Shown here: piece after piece, positions 1-48,484 of the stretch
Layout: the number at the start of each line of letters is the position of its first letter
Position numbering within the stretch: position 1 is the first letter of the stretch
Assembly: GCA_963745025.1 (NCBI GenBank)
Contig: CAVUWD010000010.1
Location: 192,001 to 256,000 of the forward strand
DNA length: 64,000 bases
Origin: an uncultured delta proteobacterium
Lineage (GTDB): Bacteria; Desulfobacterota; Binatia; JACPRU01
Direction of reading: 5' to 3'
Notes under the pieces: model-generated
Seen by the model: the letters and a program-made list of their open reading frames with translations, nothing else
The model's database searches: none
Told to the model about the DNA's origin: nothing
Program-made: the position numbers and the translations under genes

Positions 1-1365
1 CGTCGGCGATCAGCCGCGCGTTCTGCGCCGCATCGAAGTAGCGCTCGCCGTCGCGCTCGGAGTACTCGACCTGCCGTGCCACCATGTCGCGGAGCATCGC
101 CACGGCCTCCTTCTCGCAAACTCTGTAGCGGCCGGTGGTCGCGGCACGACCGTAGGTGGCGGCGTCTCCTTCCCAGGGAGTCAGGCATCCGTAGCGCTCG
201 CGCGCGACGTTCGCCGTCGGCGGATCGACGCGGTCGAGGTAGTCGAGGACCAGGCGGATCGAGGTGTACATGCTGTAGAGGTCTAGGCCGAAGAAGCCCG
301 CCACCCGAGGCCGCCGCACGGCATTCCATTCGCGGAGCCACTCGACGAAGCCGAGAACCTCTTGATTGCGCCACATCCACGTCGGGAATCGCGCGAAGGC
401 GCGCCAGGCGCGGTCTACTTCGGTCATCCCCTGGACGTAGCGGTTGACGCGCATCGCGTCCGGCCAGTCGGCCTCGACGGCGACGATGTTGAATCCGCGC
501 GAGCGGATGAGCTCCCGCGTGAGGCGTGCGCGCAACCGGTAGAACTCCGAGGTCCCGTGCGTGGCCTCGCCGATCAGCACGAGCCGCGCGTTGCCGATGC
601 GCTCGAGGAGCGCTCCGAGATCCGCTTCCTCGAGATCCTGGAAGGGCTCCGCGACCTCGCGGATCAGGCCGGCCACCGTGGCCGGGCGGCTCGGCGGCCG
701 CGGCGATGGCGCCCGTTCCTCGACCTCCCAGCCTTCGGCGCCGATGAGGGGGACGAAGCGGACGGCGCCCAGGTCTTCCTCCGAGAGCTGGCCGTCCAAG
801 CCACGCGTGATTCGAACGAGCGTCTGGGCTTTCTCCTCCCCGACGGGGATGACGAGCCTCCCCCCACCGCGAGCTGGTCGAGAAGCGACGGCGGCACCTT
901 CGGCCCTCCCGCGGCGACCACGATGGCGTCGTAAGGCGCATGCTCCGAGCAGCCGAGAGTTCCGTCGCCGTGTAGGACCGACACGTTGTCGAAGCCGAGG
1001 TCGCGCAGGCGTCGCGAGGCGATCCTCGCGAGCTCCTCGTGGCGCTCCACGGTATAGACCTCGCGCGCCATGCGGCTCAGGACGGCTGCCGCGTAACCCG
1101 AGCCGGTTCCGATCTCGAGCACTCGATCGCCCGGCCCGAGCTCGAGCGCGGCCGCCATCAGCGCGACGATGTAGGGCTGAGAGATCGTCTGCCCGCTCTC
1201 GATCGGTAGCGGCGTGTCCTGGTAGGCAAACTCCGCGAGCTCCGGCGGTACGAAGACCTCGCGCGGAACGGATCGCATCGCCGCGAGCGCCGCCGGGTCG
1301 CGGACACCGCGCGCCGCGATCTGGGTCTCGACCATCTTCTCGCGTTCGGCCTGCTGGTTCTTCAC
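1..1365 (-). CDS. pcm: Protein-L-isoaspartate O-methyltransferase fused to an erythromycin esterase domain; one frameshift at ~860-865; runs off the window start
   Basis: ORF 664-1365 has PCMT motifs (GQTISQPYIVA, VLEIGTGSGY, APYDAIVVAAG). Adding one base to the C6 run at 860-865 gives GGRLVIPVG...VRFVPLIG, then LIGEATHGTSEFY, VAVEADWPDA, FPTWMWRN and GFFGLDLYS (erythromycin esterase family), open to position 1. Confidence 0.9.
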
Positions 1366-1374
1366 GCGAGGTGC

Positions 1375-1935
1375 CTAAGCCGCTCGTCCGCCGATCGGTA
1401 CCAAACTGCTCGCCTGCGGCCCCTTTTCGCCCGCTTCCTCCGCGAAACGTACCTCCGTGCCGATCTCCAGCCGGTCGAAGCTTCCTTCACGGACGCTGCT
1501 CTGGTGAAAGTAGATCTCGCGACCGTCCGGCGTCTCGATGAAGCCGTAACCCGCTTCGGGGAAGAGCTTCGCGACCCGACCCCGCAGCGGCTGGTCGTGT
1601 GTCTTCACGTCCGCCCGCACCTCGCGCGCATAGTCCTCGATCTGGCGCGTCGCCGCCTCGAACGCGTCGCGCAGCGCGACGTAGAGATCCTGGTGCGCGC
1701 CGTGCTCGGCCGGGTCGCGCTTGACGACGATCTCGCGTCCGGGAACCGAAACGTTGATGCGCACGTGATAGACGTTGCCCTTGTGGTGCCGGTGGTGCTG
1801 CGCCTCGACCATGACGCGGCAACTCGTGATGCGCGGGTAGAAGTGGTCGAGCCGATCGGCGTATTCCCGTACGCGAGCCTCTATGGCTTCGGACGAAGGA
1901 ATGCCGCGGAACGAAAGCTGTAGTGGAAGCTGCAT
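1375..1935 (-). CDS. HPF/RaiA (S30AE) ribosome hibernation domain fused to a C-terminal cold-shock domain
   Basis: N-terminal S30AE-like region (RITSCRV, HQDLYVALRDAFEAA) and C-terminal CSD RNP motifs GYGFI and IYFHQS. ATG at 1935 chosen. Confidence 0.88.
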   Translation of the reverse strand: MQLPLQLSFRGIPSSEAIEARVREYADRLDHFYPRITSCRVMVEAQHHRHHKGNVYHVRINVSVPGREIVVKRDPAEHGAHQDLYVALRDAFEAATRQIEDYAREVRADVKTHDQPLRGRVAKLFPEAGYGFIETPDGREIYFHQSSVREGSFDRLEIGTEVRFAEEAGEKGPQASSLVPIGGRAA

Positions 1936-1972
1936 CCGTCTCTCTCCTATGGGCTCGAATGTAAACCGTCCG

Positions 1973-2431
1973 TCACGCCGCGATGTCCGCCACTTGCGGC
2001 CTCGCAAGCCGCTTGAAGTCCAAGTACTTCATGCGAATGCTCTCGGTGTGAGTGCCTGCCTGAAAGGCAATGTTCGTGTCGTCCTCGAGAGTGCGATCGA
2101 CGATCACCGGAAGCCCAAAGAGGTTGCCGAAGGGCGGCATGGCGCCGGTCTCGCACTGCGGGAACATCCGTTCGAACTCCTCCTCGGAGGCGAGACGAGC
2201 TTCTTTCTGTTGCACCGCGGCTGCGAACTTCACGAGATCGACCTTCTTCGGCGCCGGAAGCACCGCCATGAAAAAGCCGTTCGGCACCTTGACGATCGCA
2301 ACCTTCGCGTGCTCCCGGCCCGGCACGTGCTCGGCAGCCGCCACCTCCTGGGCCGTAAAGGCGATCCTGTGCGCGATTGGTTGGTACTGGACTCCGCTCG
2401 TATCGAGGAACTCCTTCAGCTTGGTAATCAT
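1973..2431 (-). CDS. YbaK/EbsC family aminoacyl-tRNA deacylase-like protein
   Basis: HAKVAIVK, CETGAMPPFG and FQAGTHTESI motifs; AGGGAGG RBS upstream of ATG 2431. Confidence 0.88.
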   Translation of the reverse strand: MITKLKEFLDTSGVQYQPIAHRIAFTAQEVAAAEHVPGREHAKVAIVKVPNGFFMAVLPAPKKVDLVKFAAAVQQKEARLASEEEFERMFPQCETGAMPPFGNLFGLPVIVDRTLEDDTNIAFQAGTHTESIRMKYLDFKRLARPQVADIAA

Positions 2432-2461
2432 GACTGTACCTCCCTTTCTCCGAGATATGTA

Positions 2462-2477
2462 AGCAAGGAACATACAA
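2462..2477 (-). promoter_or_regulatory. Sigma-54-like promoter variant upstream of the ybaK-hpf-pcm unit
   Basis: TTGTATGTTCCTTGCT: TTGC at -12 but TG instead of GG at -24; palindrome at 2535-2546. Confidence 0.4.
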
Positions 2478-2661
2478 CGCCCGCGGGATGGATCATTCCG
2501 GTTGCCAATTTACCATCGATGCGAAAGCAGGCATGCTGAATTCCCAGAACTGGGAGCCTCCGTTCTTAGACGGCTGCTGGCGCTCGCGAAATTCGATTGC
2601 GGCGGTTTGGCAAGCGGATTGCGAGGACGGTGGGTAAGGAACGAGAGGCAGGGAGGTCAAG

Positions 2662-4576: not shown

Positions 4577-5026
4577 CTACTTTTCCTGGATCGATCGGAT
4601 GTAGTCGGCGAGGGTTCGTGACTGAAGCAAGCCGGTATACTCGCGATAGAACTGTGTCTTCAGCTCCTCGTCGAAGACCGCGCCCCACACGGGCATCTCC
4701 CGCGGGCCGTGCTCCTTCACCCATCGTCGCCCGTCTATGAAGGAGAGAAGCTTGGGCTCGTCGAGCTTACCCCCGTCCTTCTTTGCGAGCTGGGTGAGAT
4801 CGGTTGGCCTGCGCTTGAGAGTCTCGGCGAGCGGGCCGTCGCCGCGGCACTGAAGGCCGTGGCACGAAGCACAATAGCGTCGGTAGAGAGCCTCGCCGCT
4901 CGGCGAGGTCGGTTCGCTCGAGCATCGCGCGAACGCGAGAAAGACGGCGCTGGCTAGCGAGAGAGACAACAAGAGCCGTGCCGACACGCGGTGGCCCGAC
5001 GCCCCTCCTTGCCCGTTCGCATCCAT
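4577..5026 (-). CDS. Monoheme cytochrome c, probable lipoprotein
   Basis: GEALYRRYCASCHG, DLTQLA, HGPREMPVWG (axial Met); hydrophobic leader ending in a lipobox-like FARC. Confidence 0.85.
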   Translation of the reverse strand: MDANGQGGASGHRVSARLLLSLSLASAVFLAFARCSSEPTSPSGEALYRRYCASCHGLQCRGDGPLAETLKRRPTDLTQLAKKDGGKLDEPKLLSFIDGRRWVKEHGPREMPVWGAVFDEELKTQFYREYTGLLQSRTLADYIRSIQEK

Positions 5027-5032
5027 CGGGCG

Positions 5033-6646
<1,614 letters not shown>

Positions 6647-6745
6647 GGGACTTCCTCGGCGCCCGCGAACTCAGCGCTTCGTGAGTACCGCCAAGCGCAA
6701 TCGCGCCTCTCTCCTCGGCATCGTCATGACGGGGGCGGAGTCCAG

Positions 6746-7216
6746 CTACTTCTTGCCCTCGATCTGGACAGAAACCTTCTTCGGCGCGAGTTCCTTCGGA
6801 ACCGGCATGCTGATCTCGAGAACGCCCTTGTCGTAGCTCGCCTTGATCTTGTCGGCGTCGACCTTCCCGGGAAGCCGCATGCTGCGCTCGAAGCTGCCGT
6901 AAGCGATCTCCTCGTGTGTGTAGTCTCCCTCTTTCTTCTCCTCCTTGTGCTTGCGCTCGCCCTTCACGGTCAGCACGTCGCCGGTCACACTGACGTCGAC
7001 TTCTTTCGGGGAGACTCCCGGAAGATCCATGCGCACGACGAGGTTGTCGTTCCGCACCAAGCTCTCCATCGCGGGATGGCCTTTCCCCGCGAACGCCGTG
7101 CCTTCGAACGGTGTTCGCCCCATGAATCGGGCGAAGAGGTCATCGAGGTCGTGGTGCCACTCTTCGAGCTCCCGAAAGGGCTCTTCGTGACGTCTCCATG
7201 GGATCAATGAGCGCAT
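6746..7216 (-). CDS. Hsp20/alpha-crystallin small heat shock protein
   Basis: DLPGV, YGSFERSMRLP, ASYDKGVLEI and a C-terminal V-x-I motif. Confidence 0.95.
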   Translation of the reverse strand: MRSLIPWRRHEEPFRELEEWHHDLDDLFARFMGRTPFEGTAFAGKGHPAMESLVRNDNLVVRMDLPGVSPKEVDVSVTGDVLTVKGERKHKEEKKEGDYTHEEIAYGSFERSMRLPGKVDADKIKASYDKGVLEISMPVPKELAPKKVSVQIEGKK

Positions 7217-7285: not shown

Positions 7286-7443
7286 CGCGCTGCAGCGCGA
7301 TTCCGTGCGATCCGGCGTTCGATCCGAATTGCGAACATGAGAATTGCTGGCGTGGCTCTCCCGAAAACAGGAAGAACCGAATGGCTAACTTTCGCTTCAA
7401 GGGTAAGCTCCCGATGCACGGCCAACGTCCTCACACTTCACGT

Positions 7444-8394
7444 TCAGGCCGAGTTGCGGCGGTGCTCGAGGGGCCCGATGCCCGGCCGGTAGATATCTTC
7501 GCGAGTGAACGGAATCGCCGTGACGTTGGCCGCAAGCTTGGACGCGACGACCTGGTAGAGGCCGATCGCGCCTTCGGAGAAGAAGACCGAGGAGGCCGTG
7601 AGGTAGAGACGCCAGATTCGATAGGTCTTCTCCGGGACGAGCTGCAGGGCCTCGCTCCGGTGCTGCTCCAGTCGCTCGGCCCACTGGCGACAGGTCCGTG
7701 AGTAGTGTTCGCGTAGCTGCTCGACGTCGCGTATCTCCCAGTTCACATCCTCCATCACGGACAGGATGTGGCTTACGTGGGTGAGTTCCCCGTTCGGGAA
7801 CACGTAGCGGGTGATGAAGTCCCATTGCGGGGTCCACTTCCAGCGGCGTTCGTGTGTGATGCCATGGCTCAGGAACAGGCCGCCGGGCTTCAGGAGCTCG
7901 CGCACCTGAGAAAAATACGCAGGGTAGTTGGCGATTCCCACGTGCTCGATGATCCCCACCGCCGCGATCTTGTCGTAGAGATCCTGGCCGCGGATCTCGC
8001 GGTAGTCGCGGCACTCGACCTGGCAGACTCTTTCGAGGCCACGCTCGCGGATGCGGGCTCGCGCATAGGAGGCCTGCGACGGGCTGAGCGTCACCCCGTG
8101 TGCTTCGACGCCGTAGTGCTCGGCAGCCCACACGAGGAGACTTCCCCAACCGCAGCCGATGTCGAGCAAGCGCTCGCCGGGCTGAAGCCGGAGCTTGCGG
8201 CAGACGAGATCGAGCTTGTCGCACTGCGCCTCGTCCAGACCACCATCCGGACGGCGGTAGTAGGCGCAGGTGTAGACCATGGTGGGGCCGAGGAAGAGCT
8301 CGTAAAACTCGTTCGAGACGTCGTAGTGGTACTGGATCGCCTTGCGATCTCGCTCGATGTCCTTCTCTCGACTGCCCTTCAGAGCCGCGAACAT
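7444..8394 (-). CDS. Cyclopropane-fatty-acyl-phospholipid synthase-like SAM methyltransferase (catalytic part only)
   Basis: IQYHYDVSNEFY, MVYTCAYY, LLDIGCGWG, GIIEHVG, YVFPNGEL, WRLYL. Confidence 0.88.
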   Translation of the reverse strand: MFAALKGSREKDIERDRKAIQYHYDVSNEFYELFLGPTMVYTCAYYRRPDGGLDEAQCDKLDLVCRKLRLQPGERLLDIGCGWGSLLVWAAEHYGVEAHGVTLSPSQASYARARIRERGLERVCQVECRDYREIRGQDLYDKIAAVGIIEHVGIANYPAYFSQVRELLKPGGLFLSHGITHERRWKWTPQWDFITRYVFPNGELTHVSHILSVMEDVNWEIRDVEQLREHYSRTCRQWAERLEQHRSEALQLVPEKTYRIWRLYLTASSVFFSEGAIGLYQVVASKLAANVTAIPFTREDIYRPGIGPLEHRRNSA

Positions 8395-35983: not shown

Positions 35984-35996
35984 GGGAAGGAAACAC

Positions 35997-40605: not shown

Positions 40606-41640
40606 ATGGTCCACATCGATGGAAGCCAGCGCTCGGGAAGCGGCACGATCGTTCGGTTCGCGACGGTGCTCGCGGTGGCGTACGGGCGGCCGGTCCACGT
40701 CTTCAATGCCCGCGTTCGCCGCCCCAAGCCCGGCCTCCGCCCACAGCACCTGACGACGGTTCGGGCCCTCGCCGAAGTCTGTGACGGGACGGTCACGGGA
40801 GCCGCAGTGGACTCTCGCGAGTTCGTCCTCACGCCCGGGCGGCTCCGCGGCGGTCGCTTCGAGTGGGACATCGGCACGGCGGGATCCGCGACGATGCTCG
40901 CGCTCGGCATTCTTCCTGCCGCGTGCCTCGCGCCCTCGGCGCTGACCGCGCGGATCACCGGAGGCGTCTTCCAGGATTTCGCGCCGTCCCCCTTTCATCT
41001 TCAGCACGTTCTCCTTCCTCTGCTTCGAAGCATGGGCATCGAGGCCGAGCTCGAGGTGATCCGCCCTGGATACCTGCCGTCGGGCGGAGGCGAGATCGAG
41101 CTCCGCACGAGGCCCGTGCGCGGCCCGCTCACGGCGATCCACCTCGGCGAGCCGGGCATCCCCCGAGACGTGGCCGGTATCGCCCTCGCGAGCAGGCTCG
41201 CGGAGCGGCGCGTCGCCGACCGCATGGCCGAAACCTGCGAGACGGCGCTTGCTTCGTCCGGGGTCGGGTCGCGCATCGAGCGGAGGTACGACGAGACCGC
41301 GAGCCACGCCGGAGCGGCGCTCGCGATCTGGGCGACGACGTCGACAGGTTGCCGGCTGGGAGCCGATCGGGCTGGTGCGCCGCGCCGCACTTCCGAGACG
41401 ATCGGGCGTAGCGTCGCGGCGGCATTGCTCGCCGACCTCGCGACCGGTGCGACCGTCGACCGTCACCTCGCCGATCAGCTCGTGCTCTTCGCCGCGCTCG
41501 CGAAGGGCCCGAGTGAATGGATCGTGCCGCAGTGGACCGAGCACGTCGAGTCCAATCTTTGGCTCGCCGAGCGGTTCGGCGCGGTTGTGCGACGTGGCGG
41601 CCACCGGGTGGAGATCGGCGGCGTGCCGCCATCGTCGTGA
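40606..41640 (+). CDS. rtcA: RNA 3'-terminal phosphate cyclase
   Basis: IDGS..SGSGTIVR, RPKPGLRPQH, GYLPSGGG, DRHLADQL (adenylated His). Confidence 0.9.
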   Translation: MVHIDGSQRSGSGTIVRFATVLAVAYGRPVHVFNARVRRPKPGLRPQHLTTVRALAEVCDGTVTGAAVDSREFVLTPGRLRGGRFEWDIGTAGSATMLALGILPAACLAPSALTARITGGVFQDFAPSPFHLQHVLLPLLRSMGIEAELEVIRPGYLPSGGGEIELRTRPVRGPLTAIHLGEPGIPRDVAGIALASRLAERRVADRMAETCETALASSGVGSRIERRYDETASHAGAALAIWATTSTGCRLGADRAGAPRRTSETIGRSVAAALLADLATGATVDRHLADQLVLFAALAKGPSEWIVPQWTEHVESNLWLAERFGAVVRRGGHRVEIGGVPPSS

Positions 41641-41817: not shown

Positions 41818-42612
41818 TCACGCCGCCGTGTTCGATTGCGAGAGCTTGCGATCGCCGATCGCGCTGAGAGTCCGAAGCACTTCCTCGGCCTTGATCGGTC
41901 GCCGGCCCGAAGACATGGAAGACCTGTGAGCCGCTCCCCGTGTGATATCGTTGAGGGAGAGGATCCCCACTAAACGATGATCGTCGTCTACCACAGGCAG
42001 GCGGCGGACCTGCCGCCGGCTCATAATCTCCTCGGCCACCGATAGCGGGTCCTCGGACCGGCAGAAGGCGACGTCCTTCGACATCACGTCTGACACGCGG
42101 AGCTCGGTGAGCGGGCGGTTGCAGAAGTACGCGGCCATGCAGACATCGCGATCGGTCAGCATCCCGAGCACGTGCGACGCGCCATCGAGCACGGGAACGC
42201 AACCGCAGTCGCGCTCCCAGAGAATTCTCGCCGCGGCGTTCAAGGGATCAGCGGCGCCGCAGCTCGCCACGTCGCGCGACATGAGCTCTGCGACCTTGGT
42301 CGCTGCGGCCTTCGACGCAGAGTGCGCGCGAAGCCGGGAAACGGCTCCTTCGAGCCCAACCGCCATCTCCTGCCACGCCTTCTCGGCCGCCTCCCGAAGT
42401 TCCTCCCAGGCGTGCTCTCCCGCCCCTCGCAGCTCGCGAATCTTCTCCGTCGCCTCGTCACGGCGGGACTGCAGGGCGGCGATCTGCTTCGCATATTCGG
42501 CGCGGCGGGCGGACGTCACCTTGCGGACCCGAGCCTTGAGGTCCTCCAACCGCGCGGACCACTCGCGCATCTGTGCCTCGAGCTTTTCGACGAATGCCTC
42601 ACGATCTGGCAT
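41818..42612 (-). CDS. Coiled-coil domain fused to a CBS pair
   Basis: N-terminal KLEAQMREW...AWEELR coiled coil; CBS DCGCVPV, GMLTDRD, VRRLPVVD. Confidence 0.8.
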   Translation of the reverse strand: MPDREAFVEKLEAQMREWSARLEDLKARVRKVTSARRAEYAKQIAALQSRRDEATEKIRELRGAGEHAWEELREAAEKAWQEMAVGLEGAVSRLRAHSASKAAATKVAELMSRDVASCGAADPLNAAARILWERDCGCVPVLDGASHVLGMLTDRDVCMAAYFCNRPLTELRVSDVMSKDVAFCRSEDPLSVAEEIMSRRQVRRLPVVDDDHRLVGILSLNDITRGAAHRSSMSSGRRPIKAEEVLRTLSAIGDRKLSQSNTAA

Positions 42613-43324
42613 GGCTGCTCCTCTCTTTGGCCTGCTGCTTCGGCCGAAGGTGATCGATGAACCACTCGCGAGCGAGCTGGGCCACCGCTTCCAGCGTGCC
42701 TGGCTCCTCGAAGAGATGTGTGGCTCCGGGAACGATCTCGAGCTTCTTTTCGCAGCGGAGCTGCGAGAGTGCTTCGCTGTTCATGAGGATCACCGGCGTA
42801 TCTTCCCCACCGACGATGAGCAGCGTCGGCGCCTGAACCCGCGCCAACGCGGATCCGGCGAGGTCCGGCCGCCCGCCGCGAGACACCACTGCGCCTACGA
42901 CGCGGGGCCGCTCGGCGGCCGCAACCAATGCCGCCCCGCCGCCGGTGCTGGCGCCGAAGTAACCGACCCTGAGATCACGCGTGGCAGGTCGAGAAGCGAG
43001 CCAGTCGGTGGCCCCGACGAGTCGCTGGGTGAGCAAGGGGATGTCGAAGCGAAGCTCCGCCGTTCGCGCATCGATCTGCTCTTCGTCCTCCGTCAGCAAG
43101 TCGAAGAGTAAGGTTCCGAGGCCGCCCTGGTGAAGCACCTCGGCGACGTACCGATTGCGCGGGCTATGCCGGCTGCTGCCGCTTCCGTGCGCGAACAGCA
43201 CGACGCCGCACGTCCCGACGGGCAGGGCCAGGCTGCCATCGAGCACGACCGGAGGTGCCGAGATGCGGACGGGAGACTGCTGGCTGTCCCGCGTGTGCGC
43301 CCTGGTCGCTGCGATGTGCTTCAT
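42599..43324 (-). CDS. Dienelactone hydrolase-like alpha/beta hydrolase
   Basis: FAHGSGSSRHSPRN, nucleophile GYFGASTG, GGED, GATHLFEE. Confidence 0.88.
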   Translation of the reverse strand: MKHIAATRAHTRDSQQSPVRISAPPVVLDGSLALPVGTCGVVLFAHGSGSSRHSPRNRYVAEVLHQGGLGTLLFDLLTEDEEQIDARTAELRFDIPLLTQRLVGATDWLASRPATRDLRVGYFGASTGGGAALVAAAERPRVVGAVVSRGGRPDLAGSALARVQAPTLLIVGGEDTPVILMNSEALSQLRCEKKLEIVPGATHLFEEPGTLEAVAQLAREWFIDHLRPKQQAKERSSHARS

Positions 43325-43381
43325 AGAAGCTCCTCCGCGCTGCACGCCGCTCGTGTGCCCGATCTGCCGTTTCAGGCCAGG

Positions 43382-44125
43382 TCAACGGGCTGCAGGCATC
43401 GTCGGCTCCACGAGCACGTGGTTGATCACGCTTCTGACGCCGAACACGTACCACGCATCTGCCTCCGCCATCTCCTTCTCGGAGTCCGACGCCACGAGCC
43501 CGTCGAGGGTCACGGTCTCGTTCGCACATGTCACCCGGATCTGCGACGCGTTGACGAATGGGTCCTTCTCGAGCGCCAGACGTACCGCGTCGGTGATCTC
43601 GTCGTCGCTGTCCTCTTCAGGAGGGGACACGCCGAGGCCGTTTACGACGTCGCGGCTCCCCGGCACCCACCACGCAAGGACGCCGGCGAGGCGCTTGTGC
43701 TCGAGGCCGGGAACGTCGCCGTCCAGCGTCACCACGCCGTCCTCTACCGAGCATTCGATGGCTCCGCGTGGCGAGCCCGCACCTCTGCGAACCAGTTCCG
43801 AACGGCCTTTGACCCGTTGGTGGATCGCGCATTCGGCGAATGCGGTGTCTTGCGCGAGCGAGTGACAGACGCCATCGCGGATCTCGGCGTCGCTCATGTG
43901 CCGGGCCGGGGCGATCTGCAATCGGTCCACGATCGCGTCGACGCCCGGAACGGCGGCGGCACGAACGAGCGCGAGCTTCTTCATCGATAGGCTTGGAAGC
44001 TCGCCCTCGAGGATGAGGTCGCTGTCGCTGAGGGCGATGGTCATCGGGTGGAGCGACAGGTTGAGCTTGGGCTCGCTCGAGAGGGCGATTCGCACCGCCC
44101 GCAGGATCTCGGCCTTTCGGTTCAT
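43382..44125 (-). CDS. Multi-BON domain protein
   Basis: Repeated DxxI...VTLDG.V BON units. Confidence 0.82.
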   Translation of the reverse strand: MNRKAEILRAVRIALSSEPKLNLSLHPMTIALSDSDLILEGELPSLSMKKLALVRAAAVPGVDAIVDRLQIAPARHMSDAEIRDGVCHSLAQDTAFAECAIHQRVKGRSELVRRGAGSPRGAIECSVEDGVVTLDGDVPGLEHKRLAGVLAWWVPGSRDVVNGLGVSPPEEDSDDEITDAVRLALEKDPFVNASQIRVTCANETVTLDGLVASDSEKEMAEADAWYVFGVRSVINHVLVEPTMPAAR

Positions 44126-44194
44126 GGGGGGTCGTCGGCGCATCCCCGCAATTCCGACCCTAGGTGCAATCTCGGCCGCGGCTCGTGTCCTGCC

Positions 44195-44734
44195 TCACCG
44201 TGCCGCGCCGCGCTTCCAGGTGCCGAGCAAGCATCCGTCTTCCTCGTCCCAGTGGTATCGGACGCGTCCTCCCAGCAGCTTCTCGATCTGCTGACCGATG
44301 CGATGCGCGAGCTTTTGCGAAGTCGTCAAGACCTCGAGCTCGCCATCGACGGCCTCGATCGACACCACTCTGCGTTCGGGTTGAGTAAATCCGGCCCGGC
44401 TGGCGACATTGCGGATGCGGCGGCGTACGAGCGCCTCCTCCTCGGCACCTGCCAAGCCCCGCAGCCGTATCCGCCCGAAGTACTCGTCTCGGCTCACCTG
44501 ACGGCAAGCGGGACAGACGACCCACGTCGGGCCGGTGGCCAAGGCCGCAACCAATTGGCGCCCCTTCCGCCAGGTGCGCTTCTCGTAGACGGAGCCGCAG
44601 CGTTCACAAACCGAGTGATCGCGAATGTGCTCTTCGTCGGCCACGTGCTTGGTCTTCGATTGCAGGCTGCCGCGCCGAACGAGAGCCCGTACGAGTCCTT
44701 TACCCTTGCTGGTAGTCGCGCCTACTCTCTTCAT
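44195..44734 (-). CDS. BCAM0308/NMD3-like zinc-ribbon protein
   Basis: CERC...CPAC; TTSQKLAHRIG. Confidence 0.7.
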   Translation of the reverse strand: MKRVGATTSKGKGLVRALVRRGSLQSKTKHVADEEHIRDHSVCERCGSVYEKRTWRKGRQLVAALATGPTWVVCPACRQVSRDEYFGRIRLRGLAGAEEEALVRRRIRNVASRAGFTQPERRVVSIEAVDGELEVLTTSQKLAHRIGQQIEKLLGGRVRYHWDEEDGCLLGTWKRGAAR

Positions 44735-44762: not shown

Positions 44763-44778
44763 ACCAACGATCGTGCCA
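44763..44778 (-). promoter_or_regulatory. Sigma-54-like promoter with a variant -12 element
   Basis: TGGCACGATCGTTGGT. Confidence 0.55.
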
Positions 44779-44918
44779 CTTCGAACGCGACGCCGATTGG
44801 CGAGCACCGCATGATGATTTGGCGCGATGATCTTCTCTATCACAGGAAAACTGGCTGCGCCGACTCCCGAATCATAGAAAGTCTGGTCGATCCCCCTCCC
44901 GGTCATTACGTCCCCGCT

Positions 44919-46531
44919 TCATTCGAGGGCGGGTGGCGCTTGCGGCTTCGGCTCCTCCACCTCGGTGAGCGTGGCCTCGCTGAGGAGCAGCACGCTGGCG
45001 ACCGAGACCGCGTTCTCCAGCGCGATTCGCACGACCTTCGTCGGATCGATGATACCGGCCTCGACGAGGTCAACGTAGGTGTTGCGTGCGGCATCGTAGC
45101 CGAAGTTTCCCTTGCCTCCGCGCATGCGATCGACGACCACCCCACCGTCTACCCCGGAGTTCTCCGCGATCTGCCGTGTCGGAGCTTCGAGGGCATGCTT
45201 GAGGATCCGAAGGCCGGTCCGCTCGTCGCCTTCGCTCTTCGCTTCCTCGCGCTCGACGGCATCGATCGCGCGCAAGAGCGCCAGCCCTCCGCCGGGCACG
45301 ATTCCTTCCGCCATCGCCGCCTTCGTCGAGCTGATCGCGTCGTCGAAGGCCTCCTTGCGGCTCTTCATCTCCGCCTCGGACGGCGCGCCGACGCGGATCA
45401 CGGCCACGCCGCCGGCGAGCTTGGCGAGCCGCTCCTGGAGCTTCTCGCGATCGTAGTCGGACGTGGTCTCCTCGATCTGCCTGCGGATCTGCTTCACGCG
45501 GCCCTCGATGTCGGCTTCCTGCCCCCGCCGCCGATGATCGTCGTGTTGTCTTTGTCGATCACCACTCGCTTCGCTCGCCCGAGGTCCGAGAGGCTGACGT
45601 TCTCGAGCTTGATGCCGAGCTCTTCGGCGACGACGTGGCCGCCGGTGAGGATCGCGATGTCCTCGAGCATCGCCTTGCGCCGATCGCCGAAGCCCGGAGC
45701 CTTGACGGCCGCGCAGGGGAGCGTGCCGCGGATCTTGTTCACGACCAGGGTGGCGAGCGCTTCGCCCTCGACGTCCTCGGCGATGATCAGGAGCGGCCGT
45801 GCCGCCTTCAGCACCTGCTCCAGCATCGGCACCAGGTCCTTGAGGCCCGATAGCTTCTTCTCGTACAGCAGGATCAGCACGTCCTCGAGCATCGTCTCCA
45901 TGCGGTCCGGATCGGTGACGAAGTAAGGCGACAGATAGCCGCGGTCGAACTGCATCCCCTCGACGACCTCGAGCGCCGTCTCGGTCGTCTTCGCCTCCTC
46001 GACGGTGATCACGCCTTCGGCGCCGACCTTCTCGACCGCGTCGGCGACGAGCTCGCCGATCGTCGGATCGTTGTGCGCCGAGATCGTGGCGACTTGCGCT
46101 CGCTCCTTGCGACTCTGGACGGGACGCGACAGGCCGCGCAGCGCTTCGACGGCAGTCCGCAGGCCGCGATCGAGACCGCGCTTCAGGTCGACCGCGCTGG
46201 CCCCCGCGGCCACGTTGCGTACGCCTTCGGCGAAGATCGTGTGGGCGAGAATCGTCGCCGTGCTGGTGCCGTCGCCGACCGCGTCGCCGGTTCGGTCGGC
46301 GGCGCCGCGGATCATCCGTGCCCCGAGGTTCTCTTCGGGATCCTTGAGGTCGATCTCCTTGGCGATCGTGACGCCGTCGTTGCACACGAGCGGCTCTCCC
46401 CACTTCTTCTCGATCAGCACGGATTTCGATTTCGGGCCGAGCGTGACGCGTACGGCGTCGGTGAGCATGCTGGAGCCGCGAAGGATCTTCTCGCGAGCTT
46501 CCGAACGGAAGGTGAGTCGTTTGTACGGCAA
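44919..46531 (-). CDS. groL: Chaperonin GroEL, copy 2; frameshift at ~45517
   Basis: The N-part (45494-46531 ORF) and C-part (end of the 44919 ORF) are colinear with copy 1; one base is missing at GRK-ADIE. TTG start with AGGAGG RBS. Confidence 0.92.
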
Positions 46532-46546
46532 GGCTTTCCTCCTAGG

Positions 46547-46790
46547 TCACTGGTCGATGAGAGAAACGCGCGGCAGCAGCGTGCGCTCGATGATCTCGGG
46601 CCACGCGTACTGCTCGGCCGTAAGGCGCGCCGAGCTCCGCAGCGCGGCGTTGGCGGCCGGGTCGGCGCAGACCCTCTTGAAGGAGCCCGATGAATTCCTT
46701 CGGGCTCGTGGTCTGCATCACGAGCGCGTTGCGTCCCGGCACCGCGTAGTCTTCGCCGAGGGAGTATCCGGTGAGAGCGAGCCCGATCCC
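46547..46790 (-). pseudogene. C-terminal remnant of a GT4-type glycosyltransferase
   Basis: Manual translation with one frameshift: GEDYAVPGRNALVMQT...LRSSARLTAEQYAWPEIIERTLLPR-stop; no start or N-terminal part. Confidence 0.55.
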
Positions 46791-46808
46791 CTCGGGCGAC
46801 TGGTCCGA

Positions 46809-47285
46809 CTACTTCTTCGCCTCGATTTGGACAGAAATCTTCTTCGGCTCTAGCTCCTTGGGCATCGGCAGGGTGATCTCGAGGACGCCCTTGTCGTAGC
46901 TGGCCTTGATCTTCTCGGCATCGACCTTGCCCGGAAGCCTCAGGCTCCGCTCCAGGCTTCCGTAGGAGATCTCTCGGCGCGTGTACTCGCCCTCCTTTGT
47001 CTCCTCCTTGTGCTTGCGCTCGGCCTTCACCGTCAGCACGTCGCCGGTCACGCTGATGTCGACTTCCTTCGGATCGACTCCCGGCAAGTCCAGGCGCACC
47101 ACGAGATCGCCGTTCTTCGCGAAGCTCTCCATGGCGGGATGCCTCGCGAACGCCGTGCCCTCGAAGCGGGCACCGGCCGTGAAGCGTGAGAAGAGATCAT
47201 CGATGCTGCGATGCCACTCCTCAAGCTCCCGAAACGGTTCCCATTCGCTCTCCTCACGACGTCTCCAGGGGATCAGTGAACGCAT
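46809..47285 (-). CDS. Hsp20/alpha-crystallin protein, paralog of 6746-7216
   Basis: Same MRSLIPWRR start, YGSLERSLRLP and ASYDKGVLEI. Confidence 0.95.
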   Translation of the reverse strand: MRSLIPWRRREESEWEPFRELEEWHRSIDDLFSRFTAGARFEGTAFARHPAMESFAKNGDLVVRLDLPGVDPKEVDISVTGDVLTVKAERKHKEETKEGEYTRREISYGSLERSLRLPGKVDAEKIKASYDKGVLEITLPMPKELEPKKISVQIEAKK

Positions 47286-47321
47286 TTTGCGCCTCCTTGA
47301 TCGTTGATGCCGAAGTTATGA

Positions 47322-47337
47322 TGCAAAGCACGCACCA
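47322..47337 (-). promoter_or_regulatory. Sigma-54 promoter of hsp20-groEL2
   Basis: TGGTGCGTGCTTTGCA (GG-N10-GC). Confidence 0.7.
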
Positions 47338-47395
47338 CTTGCAGTTACACGCCGGGAGCGGTCCCACTGCGGCTGCTTTGCCAAGAGCAAGAATA

Positions 47396-48484
47396 TCAGC
47401 GGCGCGAATTCCCAGAGATTGGAAGATGCTCGAGCTTCGGGGGCGGCCGAAGTCCGGCGGCGATTCGCAAGCCGACGGAAGACAGGGGAATCCCGTCGAG
47501 CTCCCTGTGGCGGAACCATCGCGCTCCCGGCCGGCGCTCGCGCACGCGGCGTTCGAGGCGGGCGTGGAAAACGAACGTTTCGATCCGCCGGTTGGTGATC
47601 GTGTGGAGGATCCGAACGCCTTCACGCAGCGCCCGGCAGCGGATGCCGAGCCGCGCGAGCTCTCGTTGCGCCGCGGCTTCGAGCGCCTCACCGCGTCTCG
47701 GCTCGGCGGTCGGGAACTCCCAGAGCCCACGAAGCAGGGGCCCGCGATCGTGACGGGTCATCAACACCCGACCGTCGCCTTCGAGCACCAGGCAGGCCCG
47801 CCGGACGCGCCGCGGCGAACGCCGAGACGGCGGATCGGGAAGGCGCTCGACCCAGCCCGTGTGGTAGGCGGCGCAGCTCGGGCGCAGCGGACACCGCGGG
47901 CAAGCCGGCGCTCGCGGCGTACAGAGCCTGGCGCCGAGCTCCATCAGCGCCTGGTTCCAGTCTCCCGGAGAGGATCGATCGACGAGATCCTCGGCGATCC
48001 GCCAGAGCCTGGCGGCCACCGCTGGTCGGCGAATGGGTCCGCGGACCTTGAAGTGGCGCGCGAAGACTCTCGCGACGTTGCCATCGAGGACGGGCGTGGG
48101 GATGCCGAAGGCGATGCTGGCGACGGCGCCCGCCGTGTAGCGGCCGATGCCCGGCAATGAGCGCAGCGCTCGCGGATCGCCCGGTAGCTCTCCCCCGTGC
48201 CGCGCGACGATTTGTCGTGCGGCAAGACGCAGGTGGCGGGCGCGAGCGTAGTAGCCGAGGCCCGACCACGCCGCGAGCACGGCGCTCTCCGGCGCCTGCG
48301 CGAGCGTCGACACGTTCGGAAAGCGGCGGAGGAAGCGCGGGTAGTAGCGCAGAACGGTCTCGGAGCGTGTCTGCTGCAGCATGGTCTCGGCGACCCAGAT
48401 CGCGTACGGGTCACGGGTTTGCCGCCACGGAAGCTCGCGGCGGTGCCGCCGGTACCAGCGAAGCAGCGAGGCGCGGGTGTTCAC
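47396..48484 (-). CDS. mutY: A/G-specific adenine glycosylase
   Basis: ETMLQQT, GLGYYARA, LPGIGRYTAGA, DGNVARV, FCL CxxxxxxCxxCxxxxxC, GLWEFP NUDIX-like tail. Confidence 0.93.
   Translation of the reverse strand: MNTRASLLRWYRRHRRELPWRQTRDPYAIWVAETMLQQTRSETVLRYYPRFLRRFPNVSTLAQAPESAVLAAWSGLGYYARARHLRLAARQIVARHGGELPGDPRALRSLPGIGRYTAGAVASIAFGIPTPVLDGNVARVFARHFKVRGPIRRPAVAARLWRIAEDLVDRSSPGDWNQALMELGARLCTPRAPACPRCPLRPSCAAYHTGWVERLPDPPSRRSPRRVRRACLVLEGDGRVLMTRHDRGPLLRGLWEFPTAEPRRGEALEAAAQRELARLGIRCRALREGVRILHTITNRRIETFVFHARLERRVRERRPGARWFRHRELDGIPLSSVGLRIAAGLRPPPKLEHLPISGNSRR

What the first reader, a model, noticed from the sequence alone, without database searches (positions are those of the whole stretch)
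1..47414. A ~47-kb DosR-like dormancy island apparently wired to sigma-54
Seen: GG-N10-GC sites about 15-65 bp upstream of start codons at 7270, 10565, 10711, 14173, 17751, 20246, 27154, 30771, 38925 and 47322, with near-matches at 2462, 38894 and 44763. All are intergenic and point toward the downstream gene. I found none in front of the core genes beyond 47.4 kb. Knowledge: the gene types (USPs, Hsp20, CBS, HPF-like, PncB, erythromycin esterase domain, dienelactone hydrolase-like) parallel the M. tuberculosis DosR regulon, and mycobacteria lack sigma-54. Inference: this is a hypoxia/dormancy programme run by RpoN and an enhancer-binding protein encoded outside the window.
Basis: partly seen in the sequence, partly recalled or inferred. 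Interest (0 to 1): 0.82.

Follow-up and report, generated by a model that had tools for sequence, protein, structure and literature searches.

The report
Sigma-54 stress-survival regulon island
An uncultured wetland or sediment bacterium keeps dozens of stress-survival genes, much like the tuberculosis dormancy set, behind sigma-54 promoters that share one enhancer site, a design so far shown experimentally only on a small scale in Myxococcus.

Summary
All 13 listed positions carry the described motif, in intergenic DNA, and 12 of them point at a nearby gene start. The bare GG-N10-GC pattern is at chance level (175 vs 170). A sigma-54 weight matrix trained with the island left out finds 8 intergenic sites where 1.5 are expected (P 2e-4; shuffles 0.7).

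Two new results strengthen the interpretation:
- A 16-bp palindrome, TTCYC-N6-GRGAA, occurs as tandem pairs exactly 31-32 bp apart. There are 28 intergenic pairs against 0-3 at any other spacing. Seven lie in the window, and most are 19-73 bp upstream of the -24/-12 elements.
- Only one of 23 enhancer-binding proteins has this element beside it. It is an NtrC-type regulator (C13:259586-261016) in a second, similar island.

In relatives, orthologues of this regulator sit next to, or share an open frame with, a protoglobin (haem) histidine kinase. The regulon also includes NosZ, [NiFe] hydrogenase and haem-copper oxidases.

The island extends about 18 kb beyond the window's left edge. The organism is probably a Binatia member. 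The closest known system is Myxococcus NmpRSTU; this one uses a different DNA site and is far larger. Low oxygen as the signal is inferred, not shown. The scan noted a similar case before in a Rokubacteria genome.

The parts
1..2431 (-). Operon: tRNA_edit-domain protein (1973-2431), HPF/S30AE-cold-shock-domain fusion (1375-1935), PCMT isoaspartyl methyltransferase (664-1365), erythromycin-esterase-like protein (1-941, runs off the window)
   Evidence: Pfam
2462..2477 (-). Doubtful -24/-12 near-match (TTGTAT..TTGC, no GG at -24), 30 nt upstream of the tRNA_edit start
2510..2556 (.). Tandem UAS pair (halves at 2510 and 2541, 31 bp apart) shared by two divergent units
2608..2623 (+).
   Evidence: 8.2 / 6.5 bits
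2662..4348 (+). Avidin-family protein (2662-3081) and DUF2279 lipoprotein (3227 or 3509-4348)
4577..7216 (-). Operon: Hsp20-A (6746-7216), GroEL paralogue A (5033-6646), cytochrome c (4577-5026)
   Evidence: Pfam; GroEL identity
7270..7285 (-). Sigma-54-type promoter TGGTCCGGGGATTGCA, 53 nt upstream of Hsp20-A
   Evidence: 13.2 / 12.6 bits; a similar TGGTCC-N4-TTTGCA lies upstream of the G001 GroEL orthologue
7358..7406 (.). Weaker UAS-like pair (7358 and 7391, 33 bp apart, 2 mismatches each)
7444..10505 (-). Operon: CBS-1 (10014-10505), DUF7884, FAD oxidoreductase, CMAS-type lipid methyltransferase (7444-8394)
10565..10580 (-). Strong sigma-54-type promoter TGGCCCGGGCCTTGCA, 59 nt upstream of CBS-1
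   Evidence: 18.7 / 17.4 bits
10634..10680 (.). Tandem UAS pair (10634 and 10665) between two divergent sigma-54 promoters
10711..10726 (+). Strong sigma-54-type promoter TGGCACGGAATTCGCT, 27 nt upstream of CBS-2
   Evidence: 17.9 / 18.0 bits
10754..14113 (+). CBS-2 (10754-11290) and an ACP/AMP-ligase/acyltransferase protein (11321-14113)
14173..14188 (+). Weak site GGGTCCGGGGCTTGCA, 64 nt upstream of the malic enzyme gene
   Evidence: 8.0 / 7.9 bits
14253..16190 (+). Malic enzyme (14253-15590) and adenosine-specific kinase PF04008 (15708-16190)
16204..17722 (-). Operon: Hsp20-B, DksA/TraR-type zinc-finger protein, metallo-beta-lactamase-fold protein
17751..17766 (-). Strong sigma-54-type promoter TGGCACGGCTTCTGCT, 28 nt upstream of Hsp20-B
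   Evidence: 17.6 / 14.3 bits
17795..17842 (.). UAS-like pair (17795 and 17827, 32 bp apart; 1 and 2 mismatches)
17868..20226 (-). Operon: Prs (PRPP synthetase) and PncB (nicotinate phosphoribosyltransferase)
20246..20261 (-). Strong sigma-54-type promoter TGGCACGCTGCTGGCT, 19 nt upstream of Prs
   Evidence: 17.5 / 15.6 bits
20335..20381 (.). Tandem UAS pair (20335 and 20366)
20460..20927 (+). USP-1; no sigma-54-type site found upstream
20924..27140 (-). Operon: AMP-ligase, 2-oxoacid dehydrogenase E1 alpha, E1 beta and E2, ACP, PolX-like HhH protein
27154..27169 (-). Sigma-54-type site GGGCACGCTTCTTGCG, 13 nt upstream of the called start
   Evidence: 10.1 / 8.6 bits
27201..27247 (.). Tandem UAS pair (27201 and 27232)
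27474..29843 (+). Unknown 574-aa ORF and a CarS-like protein; no sigma-54-type site found
29862..30746 (-). CBS-DUF2267 protein
30771..30786 (-). Sigma-54-type promoter CGGCATGGTCTGTGCT, 24 nt upstream of CBS-DUF2267
   Evidence: 11.1 / 14.6 bits
30826..30873 (.). Tandem UAS pair (30826, a perfect TTCCCGCGGTCGGGAA, and 30858) between divergent promoters
30934..30949 (+).
31091..36434 (+). Operon: ABC ATPase, ABC-3 permease, LonC-like protease, USP-2, unknown 145-aa ORF
36560..38879 (-). Operon: cobW-like GTPase and an amino-acid-kinase family protein
38894..38909 (-). Variant promoter TGGCACGATCATTGGT (-12 TTGG), 14 nt upstream of the cobW-like gene
   Evidence: 16.2 bits with relaxed scoring
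38925..38940 (+). GG-N10-GC site TGGAGCGGTGCTTGCA; its target is ambiguous (360 nt from USP-3)
   Evidence: 8.7 bits with relaxed scoring
39241..39287 (.). Tandem UAS pair ending 13 nt before the USP-3 start codon
39301..39777 (+). USP-3
39913..40419 (-). USP-4 (start corrected to 40419)
40502..40517 (-). -24 element TGGCACG with a poor -12 element (GTGAG), 82 nt upstream of USP-4
40606..41640 (+). RtcA RNA 3'-phosphate cyclase; no convincing sigma-54-type site
41818..44734 (-). Operon: NMD3-like zinc-finger protein, BON protein, dienelactone-hydrolase-like protein, CBS-3
44763..44778 (-). Variant promoter TGGCACGATCGTTGGT (-12 TTGG), 28 nt upstream of the operon
44833..44879 (.). Tandem UAS pair (44833 and 44864)
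44919..47285 (-). Operon: Hsp20-C (46809-47285) and GroEL paralogue B (46531-44919, split into two frames near 45495)
47322..47337 (-). Sigma-54-type promoter TGGTGCGTGCTTTGCA, 36 nt upstream of Hsp20-C
   Evidence: 9.8 / 10.4 bits; the promoter module is conserved in G001

Best explanation
The window holds about 47 kb of a roughly 65-kb gene cluster (C10:~174-239.4 kb). This cluster is the largest block of a genome-wide sigma-54 regulon.

Most transcription units in it start from a -24/-12 promoter. These are either the canonical GG-N10-GC form or a regulon-specific TGGCACG-N4-TTGG variant. Such promoters cannot fire without an enhancer-binding protein. The enhancer is a pair of 16-bp palindromes, TTCYC-N6-GRGAA, set 31-32 bp apart (three helical turns). 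It usually lies 19-73 bp upstream of the -24 element and often serves two divergent promoters.

The proposed activator is an NtrC-type response regulator (REC, AAA+ with a GSFTGA loop, HTH_8). It is encoded at C13:259586-261016, behind a CBS gene, in a second island of the same kind. When phosphorylated, it would oligomerise on the tandem sites and remodel the sigma-54 holoenzyme.

The programme it switches on covers:
- protein and ribosome preservation: 3 Hsp20, 2 GroEL paralogues, an HPF-CSD fusion, PCMT, Lon;
- nucleotide-sensing CBS and USP proteins;
- NAD and PRPP supply: PncB, Prs, NadE;
- RNA repair: RtcA, archease-RtcB;
- lipid remodelling;
- elsewhere in the genome, N2O reductase, [NiFe] hydrogenase, haem-copper oxidases and cytochromes.

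Shown by computation: the motif enrichment, the spacing rule, conservation in relatives, and the unique association of one activator with the element. Inferred: that this activator binds the element, that the sites are used as promoters, and that the input is low oxygen or a related redox or gas signal.
For: rpoN is present once and there are 23 activator genes.

Promoters:
- A genome-trained PWM separates intergenic from genic DNA: 46 vs 5 sites at >=16 bits.
- With the island left out of training, enrichment is 8 vs 1.51 in the window and 13 vs 2.29 over the full island (P 9e-7).
- Of 19 units in the window: 11 have a GG-N10-GC site (6.5-18 bits), 3 have the TTGG variant, 2 have doubtful sites and 3 have none.

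Enhancer element:
- Spacing test: 17 and 11 intergenic pairs at 31 and 32 bp, against 0-3 at each other spacing from 17 to 60.
- Strict pattern: 9 and 8 hits at 31 and 32 bp, against 0-1 at the control spacings.
- 7 of the 28 pairs are in the window, 10 are on C10:147-237 kb and 5 on C13:227-255 kb.
- 18 of 28 have a sigma-54-like site of >=8 bits within 170 nt.
- Conservation: the tandem pattern gives 7, 5, 3, 3, 3 and 3 hits in G001, G003, G002, G006, G008 and G018, and 0 in those genomes at a 35-bp control spacing.
- The same-genus genome G001 has the same genes in shuffled order with sigma-54 and UAS modules retained.

Activator:
- Only 1 of 23 activator genes has a tandem pair within 10 kb. 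It has three, the nearest 16 bp from its start.
- The same flanking arrangement occurs in G001, G002 and G006.
- It has the expected domains and motifs.
- Orthologues are adjacent to a protoglobin kinase in L073, L172 and L174, and share an open frame with one in L170. L072 has a PAS kinase instead.

Regulon content outside the islands: cyt c-NosZ-NosD, HypA-HypB-hydrogenase small subunit, a BON protein, a USP.

The Myxococcus NmpR precedent has experimental proof of sigma-54 dependence and hypoxic induction (sections read in PMC11841059).
Against: - No transcript start, binding assay or expression data exist for this organism. RNA contigs from one sediment metatranscriptome cover parts of six island genes but cannot show starts. 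One contig runs to 7287, past the start predicted for the 7270 site.
- 3 of 19 units lack a site, and several sites are weak (6.5-8.7 bits).
- 10 of 28 tandem elements have no sigma-54-like site of >=8 bits within 170 nt.
- The tandem elements in front of the activator gene and of USP-3 abut the start codon, a position that does not fit simple activation.
- G000 has no protoglobin domain, and no kinase in it stands out as the partner: all kinase cores are about 30% identical.
- G004, G005 and G007 have the activator orthologue but no strict tandem hit at 31 bp. These genomes are 65-84% complete.
- One of the two named Binatia loci (L072) has no tandem element within 21 kb.
- The k-mer enrichments do not survive multiple-test correction on their own.
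Confidence: 0.72

Rival explanations
1. The regulon is sigma-54/EBP-driven as described, but the signal is not oxygen limitation. It would instead be a general energy-starvation, stationary-phase or desiccation signal, or a nitrogen-oxide (NO/N2O) or CO signal.
For: G000 lacks a protoglobin sensor, and its candidate kinases carry only generic PAS and GAF domains. The many CBS and USP proteins are nucleotide/energy sensors, as discussed in PMC11841059 section 22. NosZ and haem-copper oxidases that could be NOR-type belong to the regulon. Protoglobin haem can bind several gases (recalled).
Against: Orthologues of the activator pair with a protoglobin kinase in 4 of 6 loci examined. The homologous Myxococcus and Anaeromyxobacter kinases need haem and respond to O2, per PMC11841059 (sections read) and the abstract of PMC8697598. 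Hemerythrin, hydrogenase and alternative oxidases are typical low-oxygen equipment.
Confidence: 0.22
2. The tandem palindrome is bound by a different protein from the C13 NtrC-type regulator, either another of the 23 activators or a non-EBP regulator. The C13 regulator would then be a regulon member and not its master.
For: The association is by position only. The element in front of the regulator's start codon could simply mean that the gene is a target. Three family members have the orthologue without strict tandem hits.
Against: None of the other 22 activator genes has a pair within 10 kb. The flanking arrangement is conserved in four genomes. Autoregulation through its own sites is shown for NmpR (PMC11841059). 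All six relatives with >=3 tandem hits carry the orthologue.
Confidence: 0.15
3. The GG-N10-GC matches are chance products of GC-rich DNA, and the genes are a loose collection of sigma-70 stress genes.
For: The bare pattern is at chance level. Some listed sites score low (14173, 27154, 38925). Three units have no site.
Against: The leave-island-out PWM enrichment and the shuffle control. The intergenic-to-genic contrast. The unbiased k-mer ranking. The 31-32 bp spacing peak of the linked enhancer. Conservation in relatives.
Confidence: 0.03

Closest known systems
NmpRSTU of Myxococcus xanthus (NtrC-like NmpR; McAllister et al., J Bacteriol 2025, PMC11841059; Bretl et al., PLoS Genet 2018, PMC6211767)
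   Same: An NtrC-type response regulator activates sigma-54 promoters through two dyad sites about three helical turns apart. A CBS gene sits at the head of the regulator's operon. A protoglobin (haem) kinase is linked to the regulator, here in orthologous loci. The targets include CBS, USP, hemerythrin and haem-copper oxidase genes. The regulator gene carries its own sites.
   Different: The DNA site is TTCYC-N6-GRGAA, not GCGCA-N5-TGCGC. There are about 28 control regions and two large islands, against 7 promoters and 23 genes. The gene set adds chaperones, ribosome hibernation, NAD salvage, RNA repair, N2O reductase and hydrogenase. G000 has no protoglobin kinase. Where the kinase is present it abuts the regulator with no NmpS/NmpT genes between them. 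Orthology to NmpR was not tested, because I did not obtain its sequence. The organism is a different phylum (probably Binatia).
DosR/DevR dormancy regulon of Mycobacterium tuberculosis (and Streptomyces OsdR)
   Same: The kinds of genes match: Hsp20 (hspX), several USPs, CBS proteins, an S30AE/HPF protein (Rv0079/RafH), an erythromycin-esterase-domain protein with PRT chemistry nearby (Rv2030c), PncB and PfkB. The sensors are haem-based. These genes form a clustered island. Sources: the abstract of PMC3390679, and recall for the remainder.
   Different: The regulator there is a NarL/LuxR-type response regulator acting with sigma-70-family holoenzyme, and actinobacteria lack sigma-54 (recalled; the Corynebacterium control shows no Sigma54_DBD match). 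Here the promoters are -24/-12 and need an AAA+ activator. The resemblance is functional convergence, not family membership.
Burkholderia cenocepacia lxa (low-oxygen-activated) locus
   Same: A roughly 50-gene cluster with six USPs and stress proteins that is induced by low oxygen. It is mentioned in the search listings (PMC9733578 abstract); the rest is recalled.
   Different: Its regulation has not been reported as sigma-54-dependent (recalled, not checked). The phylum differs.
E. coli RtcR-rtcBA
   Same: RNA-repair genes (RtcA; archease-RtcB) under sigma-54 control (recalled for E. coli). Here archease-rtcB follows a tandem UAS and a TGGCACG-N4-TTGG promoter at C13:227914.
   Different: No dedicated CARF-type RtcR is involved here. 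The genes are recruited into the larger regulon, and RtcA in the window shows no convincing site.

Membership tests
Sigma-54 (-24/-12) promoter class | GG and GC dinucleotides exactly 10 nt apart within the TGGCAC-N5-TTGC consensus | tested here: met
   Met for 11 of 19 units in the window (6.5-18 bits). Three further units have GG at the -12 position (TTGG), a departure from the definition.
Sigma-54 (-24/-12) promoter class | Located upstream of a gene and oriented towards it | tested here: met
Genome-wide, sites >=16 bits are 46 intergenic and 5 genic.
Sigma-54 (-24/-12) promoter class | rpoN and an AAA+ activator present in the genome | tested here: met
   One Sigma54_DBD match at 208.5 bits; 23 activator genes.
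Sigma-54 (-24/-12) promoter class | Transcription starts about 12 nt downstream of the -12 element and depends on rpoN | not testable with these tools
   Only contigs of an RNA library were available, and these cannot show starts.
NtrC-family bacterial enhancer-binding protein | REC, sigma-54-interaction AAA+ and HTH_8 domains | tested here: met
   PF00072 at 103 bits, PF00158 at 240 bits, PF02954 at 37 bits.
NtrC-family bacterial enhancer-binding protein | GAFTGA sigma-54 contact loop, Walker A and B motifs, receiver aspartate | tested here: met
   GSFTGA (one substitution), GESGVGKE, IFLDEIGD and ...VVITDLRMPG... are read in the translation. The motif definitions are recalled.
NtrC-family bacterial enhancer-binding protein | Binds paired dyad sites upstream of its target promoters | tested here: inconclusive
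   The tandem dyads exist and flank only this activator's gene. Binding itself is not testable here.
NmpRSTU-type oxygen-responsive system | CBS gene at the head of the regulator's operon | tested here: met
   A CBS gene (C13:261082-261516) lies directly upstream of the regulator on the same strand. It is also present in L175, and beside the regulator in L072.
NmpRSTU-type oxygen-responsive system | Protoglobin histidine kinase (NmpU) in the system | tested here: not met
   G000 has no PF11563 match at 92.65% completeness. The feature is met in orthologous loci L073, L172, L174 and L170.
NmpRSTU-type oxygen-responsive system | Hybrid RR-SK (NmpS) and REC-REC protein (NmpT) | tested here: inconclusive
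   A REC-PAS-HisKA-HATPase-REC kinase sits at the island's left edge, but no specific link to the regulator was found. An NmpT-like protein was not searched for.
NmpRSTU-type oxygen-responsive system | NmpR binding site GCGCA-N5-TGCGC | tested here: not met
   The shared element here is TTCYC-N6-GRGAA.
NmpRSTU-type oxygen-responsive system | Orthology of the regulator to NmpR | not tested
   The NmpR sequence was not obtained. The myxobacterial loci returned (L098, L090; 41-42% identity) are not the nmp locus.
DosR/DevR regulon | NarL/LuxR-type DosR regulator with DosS/DosT kinases and a DosR box | tested here: not met
   The promoters are -24/-12 and the associated regulator is NtrC-type. No search for a DosR box or a DosR homologue was made.
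DosR/DevR regulon | Characteristic gene content (Hsp20, USPs, CBS, S30AE, PncB, erythromycin-esterase domain) | tested here: met
   Pfam, compared with passages in PMC7387457.

The most novel reading that the evidence does not exclude
Uncultured soil and sediment phyla have assembled, around sigma-54 and a haem-sensor-linked NtrC-type activator, a survival regulon of more than 100 genes. It converges gene for gene on the actinobacterial DosR dormancy set. The evidence is this Binatia-like genome and its class relatives, plus an earlier unchecked scan note for a Rokubacteria genome. The regulon carries its own promoter dialect (-12 TTGG) and a strict two-dyad enhancer with 31-32 bp phasing. This would make it a widespread and so far unrecognised way of entering low-oxygen persistence, linked to trace-gas (H2, N2O) respiration.
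Probability: 0.4. Interest if true: 0.72.

Novelty: new variant of a known kind. Interest (0 to 1): 0.6.

Why it matters
Binatia and similar uncultured lineages are common in wetlands, sediments and soils where oxygen fluctuates, yet how they persist there is unknown. This locus offers a concrete and testable regulatory code: a promoter, a phased enhancer and a named regulator. With it, the whole survival programme can be read from a genome sequence alone and followed in metatranscriptomes.

It also shows that the dormancy toolkit known from tuberculosis research is not tied to DosR. The same kinds of genes can be run by the tightly switched sigma-54 system. That extends the small Myxococcus NmpR regulon to a genome-scale programme that includes N2O reduction and hydrogen oxidation, two processes relevant to greenhouse-gas budgets.

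Tried and rejected
- Bare TGG-N10-GC count: no enrichment. I replaced it with weighted scoring.
- My first reading of PF00118 as a thermosome-like group II chaperonin was wrong. All 41 genomes searched have ~60% identical homologues, so these are GroEL paralogues.
- The first enhancer formula, TTCC-N8-GGAA, was refined to TTCYC-N6-GRGAA with a fixed spacing.
- Search for a protoglobin domain in G000: none found.
- tblastn of the kinases linked to the activator's orthologues against G000: all hits are about 28-34% identical over long stretches, so no partner could be named.
- Myxobacterial loci L098 and L090: not the nmp locus, so orthology to NmpR stays open.
- Upstream region of the CBS-EBP operon: no sigma-54 site or UAS seen.
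- Named Binatia locus L072: no tandem element. Across the 80 loci (1.18 Mb) there were 4 tandem hits, and only L073 pairs one with a sigma-54-like site.
- Public runs: 19 DNA holders (share 0.20-0.47) and one RNA run (share 0.07). Laying X20, X1, X2 and X13 gave contigs only, so no starts, strands or levels. Depth peaks at 5.7-6.3 kb and 23.7-25 kb reflect conserved GroEL and E1 genes of other organisms.
- Paper searches for Binatota or Binatia together with sigma-54, RpoN, NtrC, dormancy, hypoxia or universal stress: none of the 22 listed papers contains Binatota or Binatia. Only the top of 544 and 357 hits was seen, so this is not proof of absence.
- Complex prediction, structure prediction and the large protein-database searches were not used.

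Full report
**Material.** The window is G000:C10:192001-256000 in a 5.65-Mb, 20-contig assembly with 66% GC, 92.65% completeness and 7.6% contamination. I called genes with a codon-usage model trained on the genome and annotated them with Pfam. The gene caller covers 82% of the genome, so some starts and small genes are uncertain.

**The observation.** The bare pattern TGG-N10-GC is at chance level: 175 matches against 170.35 +/- 12.9 in shuffles. The signal lies in the flanking consensus and in where the sites sit. Ten of the 11 window sites matching at least 10 of 12 consensus positions are intergenic. Genome-wide, sites scoring 11 are 43 intergenic and 7 genic.

A weight matrix learned iteratively from the genome gives 46 intergenic and 5 genic sites at >=16 bits. 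To avoid circularity I retrained it with C10:140-240 kb excluded (46 training sites). The results, all:
- Window island (5,869 nt intergenic): 8 sites >=8 bits against 1.51 expected from the rest of the genome's intergenic DNA (P 1.8e-4), and 5 at >=14 bits against 0.39 (P 5.5e-5).
- 300 dinucleotide shuffles of the island's intergenic segments: mean 0.70, maximum 4.
- The core part of the window has only 866 nt of intergenic DNA (0.22 expected), so finding no sites there carries no weight.

An unbiased k-mer comparison puts TTGGCA, TTGCAT and TGGCACG at the top for island intergenic DNA. None is individually significant after correction.

**Gene content.** The window's island holds about 50 genes in 19 transcription units:
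- three Hsp20 genes, two of them heading operons with GroEL paralogues;
- four CBS proteins and four USPs;
- an HPF(S30AE)-cold-shock-domain fusion, followed by PCMT and an erythromycin-esterase-like protein;
- Prs-PncB, malic enzyme, and a 2-oxoacid dehydrogenase operon with an AMP-ligase and ACP;
- a CMAS-type lipid methyltransferase operon, and a LonC-like protease with an ABC transporter;
- BON, a dienelactone-hydrolase-like protein, RtcA, an avidin-family protein, and others.

I first misread the PF00118 proteins as thermosome-like. One search shows about 60% identity to chaperonins in all 41 genomes searched, so they are GroEL paralogues. Only G001, G007 and G034 have close (78-87%) orthologues of the island type.

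**Per-unit promoters.**
- 11 units have a GG-N10-GC site (6.5-18.0 bits).
- 3 have TGGCACG-N4-TTGG (30934, 38894, 44763).
- 2 have doubtful elements (2462 lacks the GG; 40502 has a poor -12).
- 3 have nothing convincing (USP 20460, ORF 27474, RtcA 40606).

The TTGG form occurs in 6 of 102 intergenic sites seeded only on the -24 element. From base composition I estimate about 0.35 expected; this is my own arithmetic, not a tool output. Three of the six are in the window.

**Extent.** Strong sites continue to the left of the window at C10:180461 (hemerythrin), 184211 (CBS-cytochrome c) and 186299. That flank encodes two more USPs, NadE, a CBS protein, a glucan-phosphorylase-like protein and two sensor kinases. 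The kinases are a GAF-PAS kinase and a REC-PAS-HisKA-HATPase-REC hybrid. The cluster therefore spans about C10:174-239.4 kb. Over this span the matrix finds 13 sites >=8 bits against 2.29 expected (P 9e-7). GC content is like the rest of the genome, and I saw nothing that marks it as mobile.

**A shared enhancer.** Gibbs sampling on the 200 nt upstream of 16 candidate promoters converged on a 16-bp palindrome. Since a sampler always returns something, I tested the motif in three ways.
- Enrichment: exact TTCC-N8-GGAA occurs 3 times in island intergenic DNA against 0.14 expected. With one mismatch allowed it occurs 10 times against 2.49.
- Spacing: pairs of half-palindromes show a sharp peak at 31 and 32 bp start-to-start (18 and 13 pairs, of which 17 and 11 are intergenic). 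Every other spacing from 17 to 60 gives 0-6 pairs, of which 0-3 are intergenic. With the stricter pattern TTCYC-N6-GRGAA and at most 2 mismatches per pair, there are 9 and 8 hits at 31 and 32 bp against 0-1 at 27-30 and 33-36 bp.
- Linkage to promoters: 18 of the 28 intergenic pairs have a sigma-54-like site of >=8 bits within 170 nt, typically 19-73 nt away and sometimes on both sides. The other 10 do not.

Seven pairs lie in the window, 10 on C10:147-237 kb, 5 on C13:227-255 kb and 13 elsewhere.

**Conservation.** The same-genus genome G001 holds the same genes at 70-86% nucleotide identity, but in a different order. Sigma-54-type sites and tandem palindromes occur there too. The Hsp20-C promoter region of G000 is recognisable in G001 as a module (UAS-like element, TTGGCAAAGC, then AAGTGG[T/C]GC[G/A]TGCTTTGCA) in front of different genes. 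G001's GroEL orthologue has TGGTCC-N4-TTTGCA.

Across 41 genomes, the tandem pattern at 31 bp gives 9 hits in G000, 7 in G001, 5 in G003, and 3 each in G002, G006, G008 and G018. G017, G021 and G040 have single hits, and the other 31 genomes have none. At a control spacing of 35 bp only G027 and G032 have one hit each.

**The rest of the regulon.** A second cluster at C13:225-262 kb carries five tandem pairs. It encodes five CBS proteins, two USPs, a BON protein, a DksA/TraR-type zinc-finger protein, a phosphoribosyltransferase, archease-RtcB, a TrkA-type K+ channel, cytochromes c and two haem-copper oxidase operons. Other tandem pairs precede:
- cytochrome c-NosZ-NosD;
- HypA-HypB-[NiFe] hydrogenase small subunit;
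- a four-BON protein and VIT1;
- a USP;
- PfkB-YHS;
- an M48 peptidase;
- the multihaem cytochrome genes at C10:147-150 kb.

**The activator.** The C13 cluster encodes an NtrC-type regulator of 476 aa (REC, sigma-54 AAA+, HTH_8). It has an intact receiver aspartate context, Walker motifs and a GSFTGA loop.

Of the 23 activator genes in the genome, only this one has tandem pairs within 10 kb. It has three, the nearest 16 bp from its start codon. The nearest pair to any other activator gene is 10.8 kb away.

In G000, G001, G002 and G006, a tandem pair lies directly in front of the regulator's start codon. In G002 and G006 a second pair with a sigma-54 site follows the gene. G001 has one half-site with a sigma-54 site there. 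G000 has one half-site and no site of >=9 bits. The next genes in G000 are a haem-copper oxidase operon.

Orthologues (60-95% identity) are clearly separated from paralogues (<=50%). They occur in all six relatives that have three or more tandem hits. They also occur in many genomes without strict hits, including G004, G005 and G007 of the same family.

The best named relatives are two Candidatus Binatia MAGs at 68-69% identity; everything else is <=50%. On this basis I infer that the organism belongs to Binatia.

**The sensor.** In orthologous loci the regulator abuts a Protoglobin-HisKA-HATPase kinase (L073, L172, L174). In G007 (L170) it lies with such a kinase in a single 892-aa open frame. 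L072 has a PAS kinase instead, and L175 shows only a CBS gene. G000 has no protoglobin match, and tblastn with these kinases singles out no partner in G000. The kinases at the island's left edge are candidates only.

**Comparison with the literature.** Searches led to the Myxococcus xanthus NmpRSTU papers. For PMC11841059 I read the abstract, results sections 12 (part 1) and 16, and discussion section 22. For PMC6211767 I read passages only.

In that system a protoglobin kinase (NmpU) signals through a hybrid RR-SK (NmpS) to the NtrC-like NmpR. NmpR binds two GCGCA-N5-TGCGC sites, mostly 14-15 bp apart, and activates sigma-54 promoters of seven operons (23 genes). The targets include a CBS gene at the head of its own operon, a USP, cbb3 oxidase and HemN-hemerythrin, and hypoxic induction has been shown.

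The present system shares this logic and several target families. It differs in DNA site, scale and gene content, and in G000 it lacks the protoglobin kinase. Orthology to NmpR is untested.

The DosR parallels are documented for Rv2030c, Rv0079, hspX, Rv2623 and Rv2626c as regulon members, and for RafH (abstract). The remainder is recalled.

Two searches combining Binatota or Binatia with sigma-54, RpoN, NtrC, dormancy, hypoxia or universal stress listed no Binatia paper among the 22 shown.

**Field data.** Closely related DNA occurs in wetland, bog and sediment metagenomes. Long pieces of X13 differ at 0-6 positions, and pieces of X1 and X2 are about 96-99% identical. Contigs of one sediment RNA library, about 96% identical, cover parts of Hsp20-A, CBS-1, the Hsp20-B operon, Prs and E2. 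Contigs cannot show starts or levels, and DNA carry-over is possible.

**Earlier scan notes.** One note on another genome (Rokubacteria, e1-3094655) describes a similar set of sigma-54-wired, DosR-like operons. I did not test it. Two notes on this contig describe a sigma-54-controlled PKS operon near the strong site I see at C10:102985, and the porin-NHL-multihaem operon that my tandem pairs at C10:147009 and 150489 flank.

**Verdict.** It is extended by a defined enhancer, a named candidate activator, a sensor lead and a genome-wide regulon. The physiological trigger remains inferred. Because the principle is already established in Myxococcus, I rate this a new variant of a known kind, of moderate to high interest.

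Noticed in passing
window 664-1365(-) and 1-941(-): The PCMT (isoaspartyl methyltransferase) ORF overlaps the erythromycin-esterase-like ORF in another frame, near a G-run around 880. This could be an assembly frameshift in a fusion protein or a genuine overlap.
   Followed up: no
window 44919-46531(-): GroEL paralogue B is split into two frames near 45495. The G001 orthologue of the island-type GroEL is split at a different place. Either these are MAG sequencing errors or the genes are decaying.
   Followed up: partly
window 1375-1935(-): A single protein fuses a ribosome-hibernation S30AE/HPF domain to a cold-shock (CSD) domain.
   Followed up: no
window 39241-39287, and C13:261032 (L165:2944-2989): Tandem enhancer pairs end only 13-16 nt before the start codons of USP-3 and of the activator gene. 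That leaves no room for a promoter. The position is conserved for the activator in G001, G002 and G006. It may reflect autorepression or an enhancer acting from downstream.
   Followed up: partly
L170:211-2889 (G007): One 892-aa open frame contains Protoglobin-HisKA-HATPase-REC-AAA+-HTH_8. This is a sensor kinase and its sigma-54 activator in one reading frame, either a fusion or a lost stop codon.
   Followed up: no
window 30934, 38894, 44763; C13:227914; C6:212533: A promoter variant with TTGG instead of TTGC at -12 (TGGCACG-N4-TTGG) occurs almost only next to the tandem enhancer.
   Followed up: partly
window 29301-29843, 44195-44734, 15708-16190: Genes of families better known from archaea sit inside the regulon: a CarS-like CDP-archaeol-synthase family protein, an NMD3-like zinc-finger protein, and adenosine-specific kinase PF04008.
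   Followed up: no
C13:261778-264444(-) (L071:5778-8444): An 888-aa protein with an N-terminal GNAT domain and an ADP-forming acyl-CoA-synthetase-like body lies next to the CBS-activator operon. The earlier Rokubacteria note also lists an ADP-forming acetyl-CoA synthetase in its operon.
   Followed up: no
C10:147009 and 150489 (L152): Tandem enhancer pairs flank the porin-NHL-multihaem cytochrome operon that an earlier scan note described as an extracellular-electron-transfer module. That operon may therefore belong to the same regulon.
   Followed up: partly
window 2662-3081(+): An avidin-family (biotin-binding) protein is encoded behind a weak sigma-54-type site and shares a tandem enhancer with the HPF operon.
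   Followed up: no
window 53031-59351(-): The core part of the window carries LexA and a BatA/VWA-DUF58-MoxR (aerotolerance-type) operon. The MoxR ORF looks truncated at its N-terminus in my gene call.
   Followed up: no
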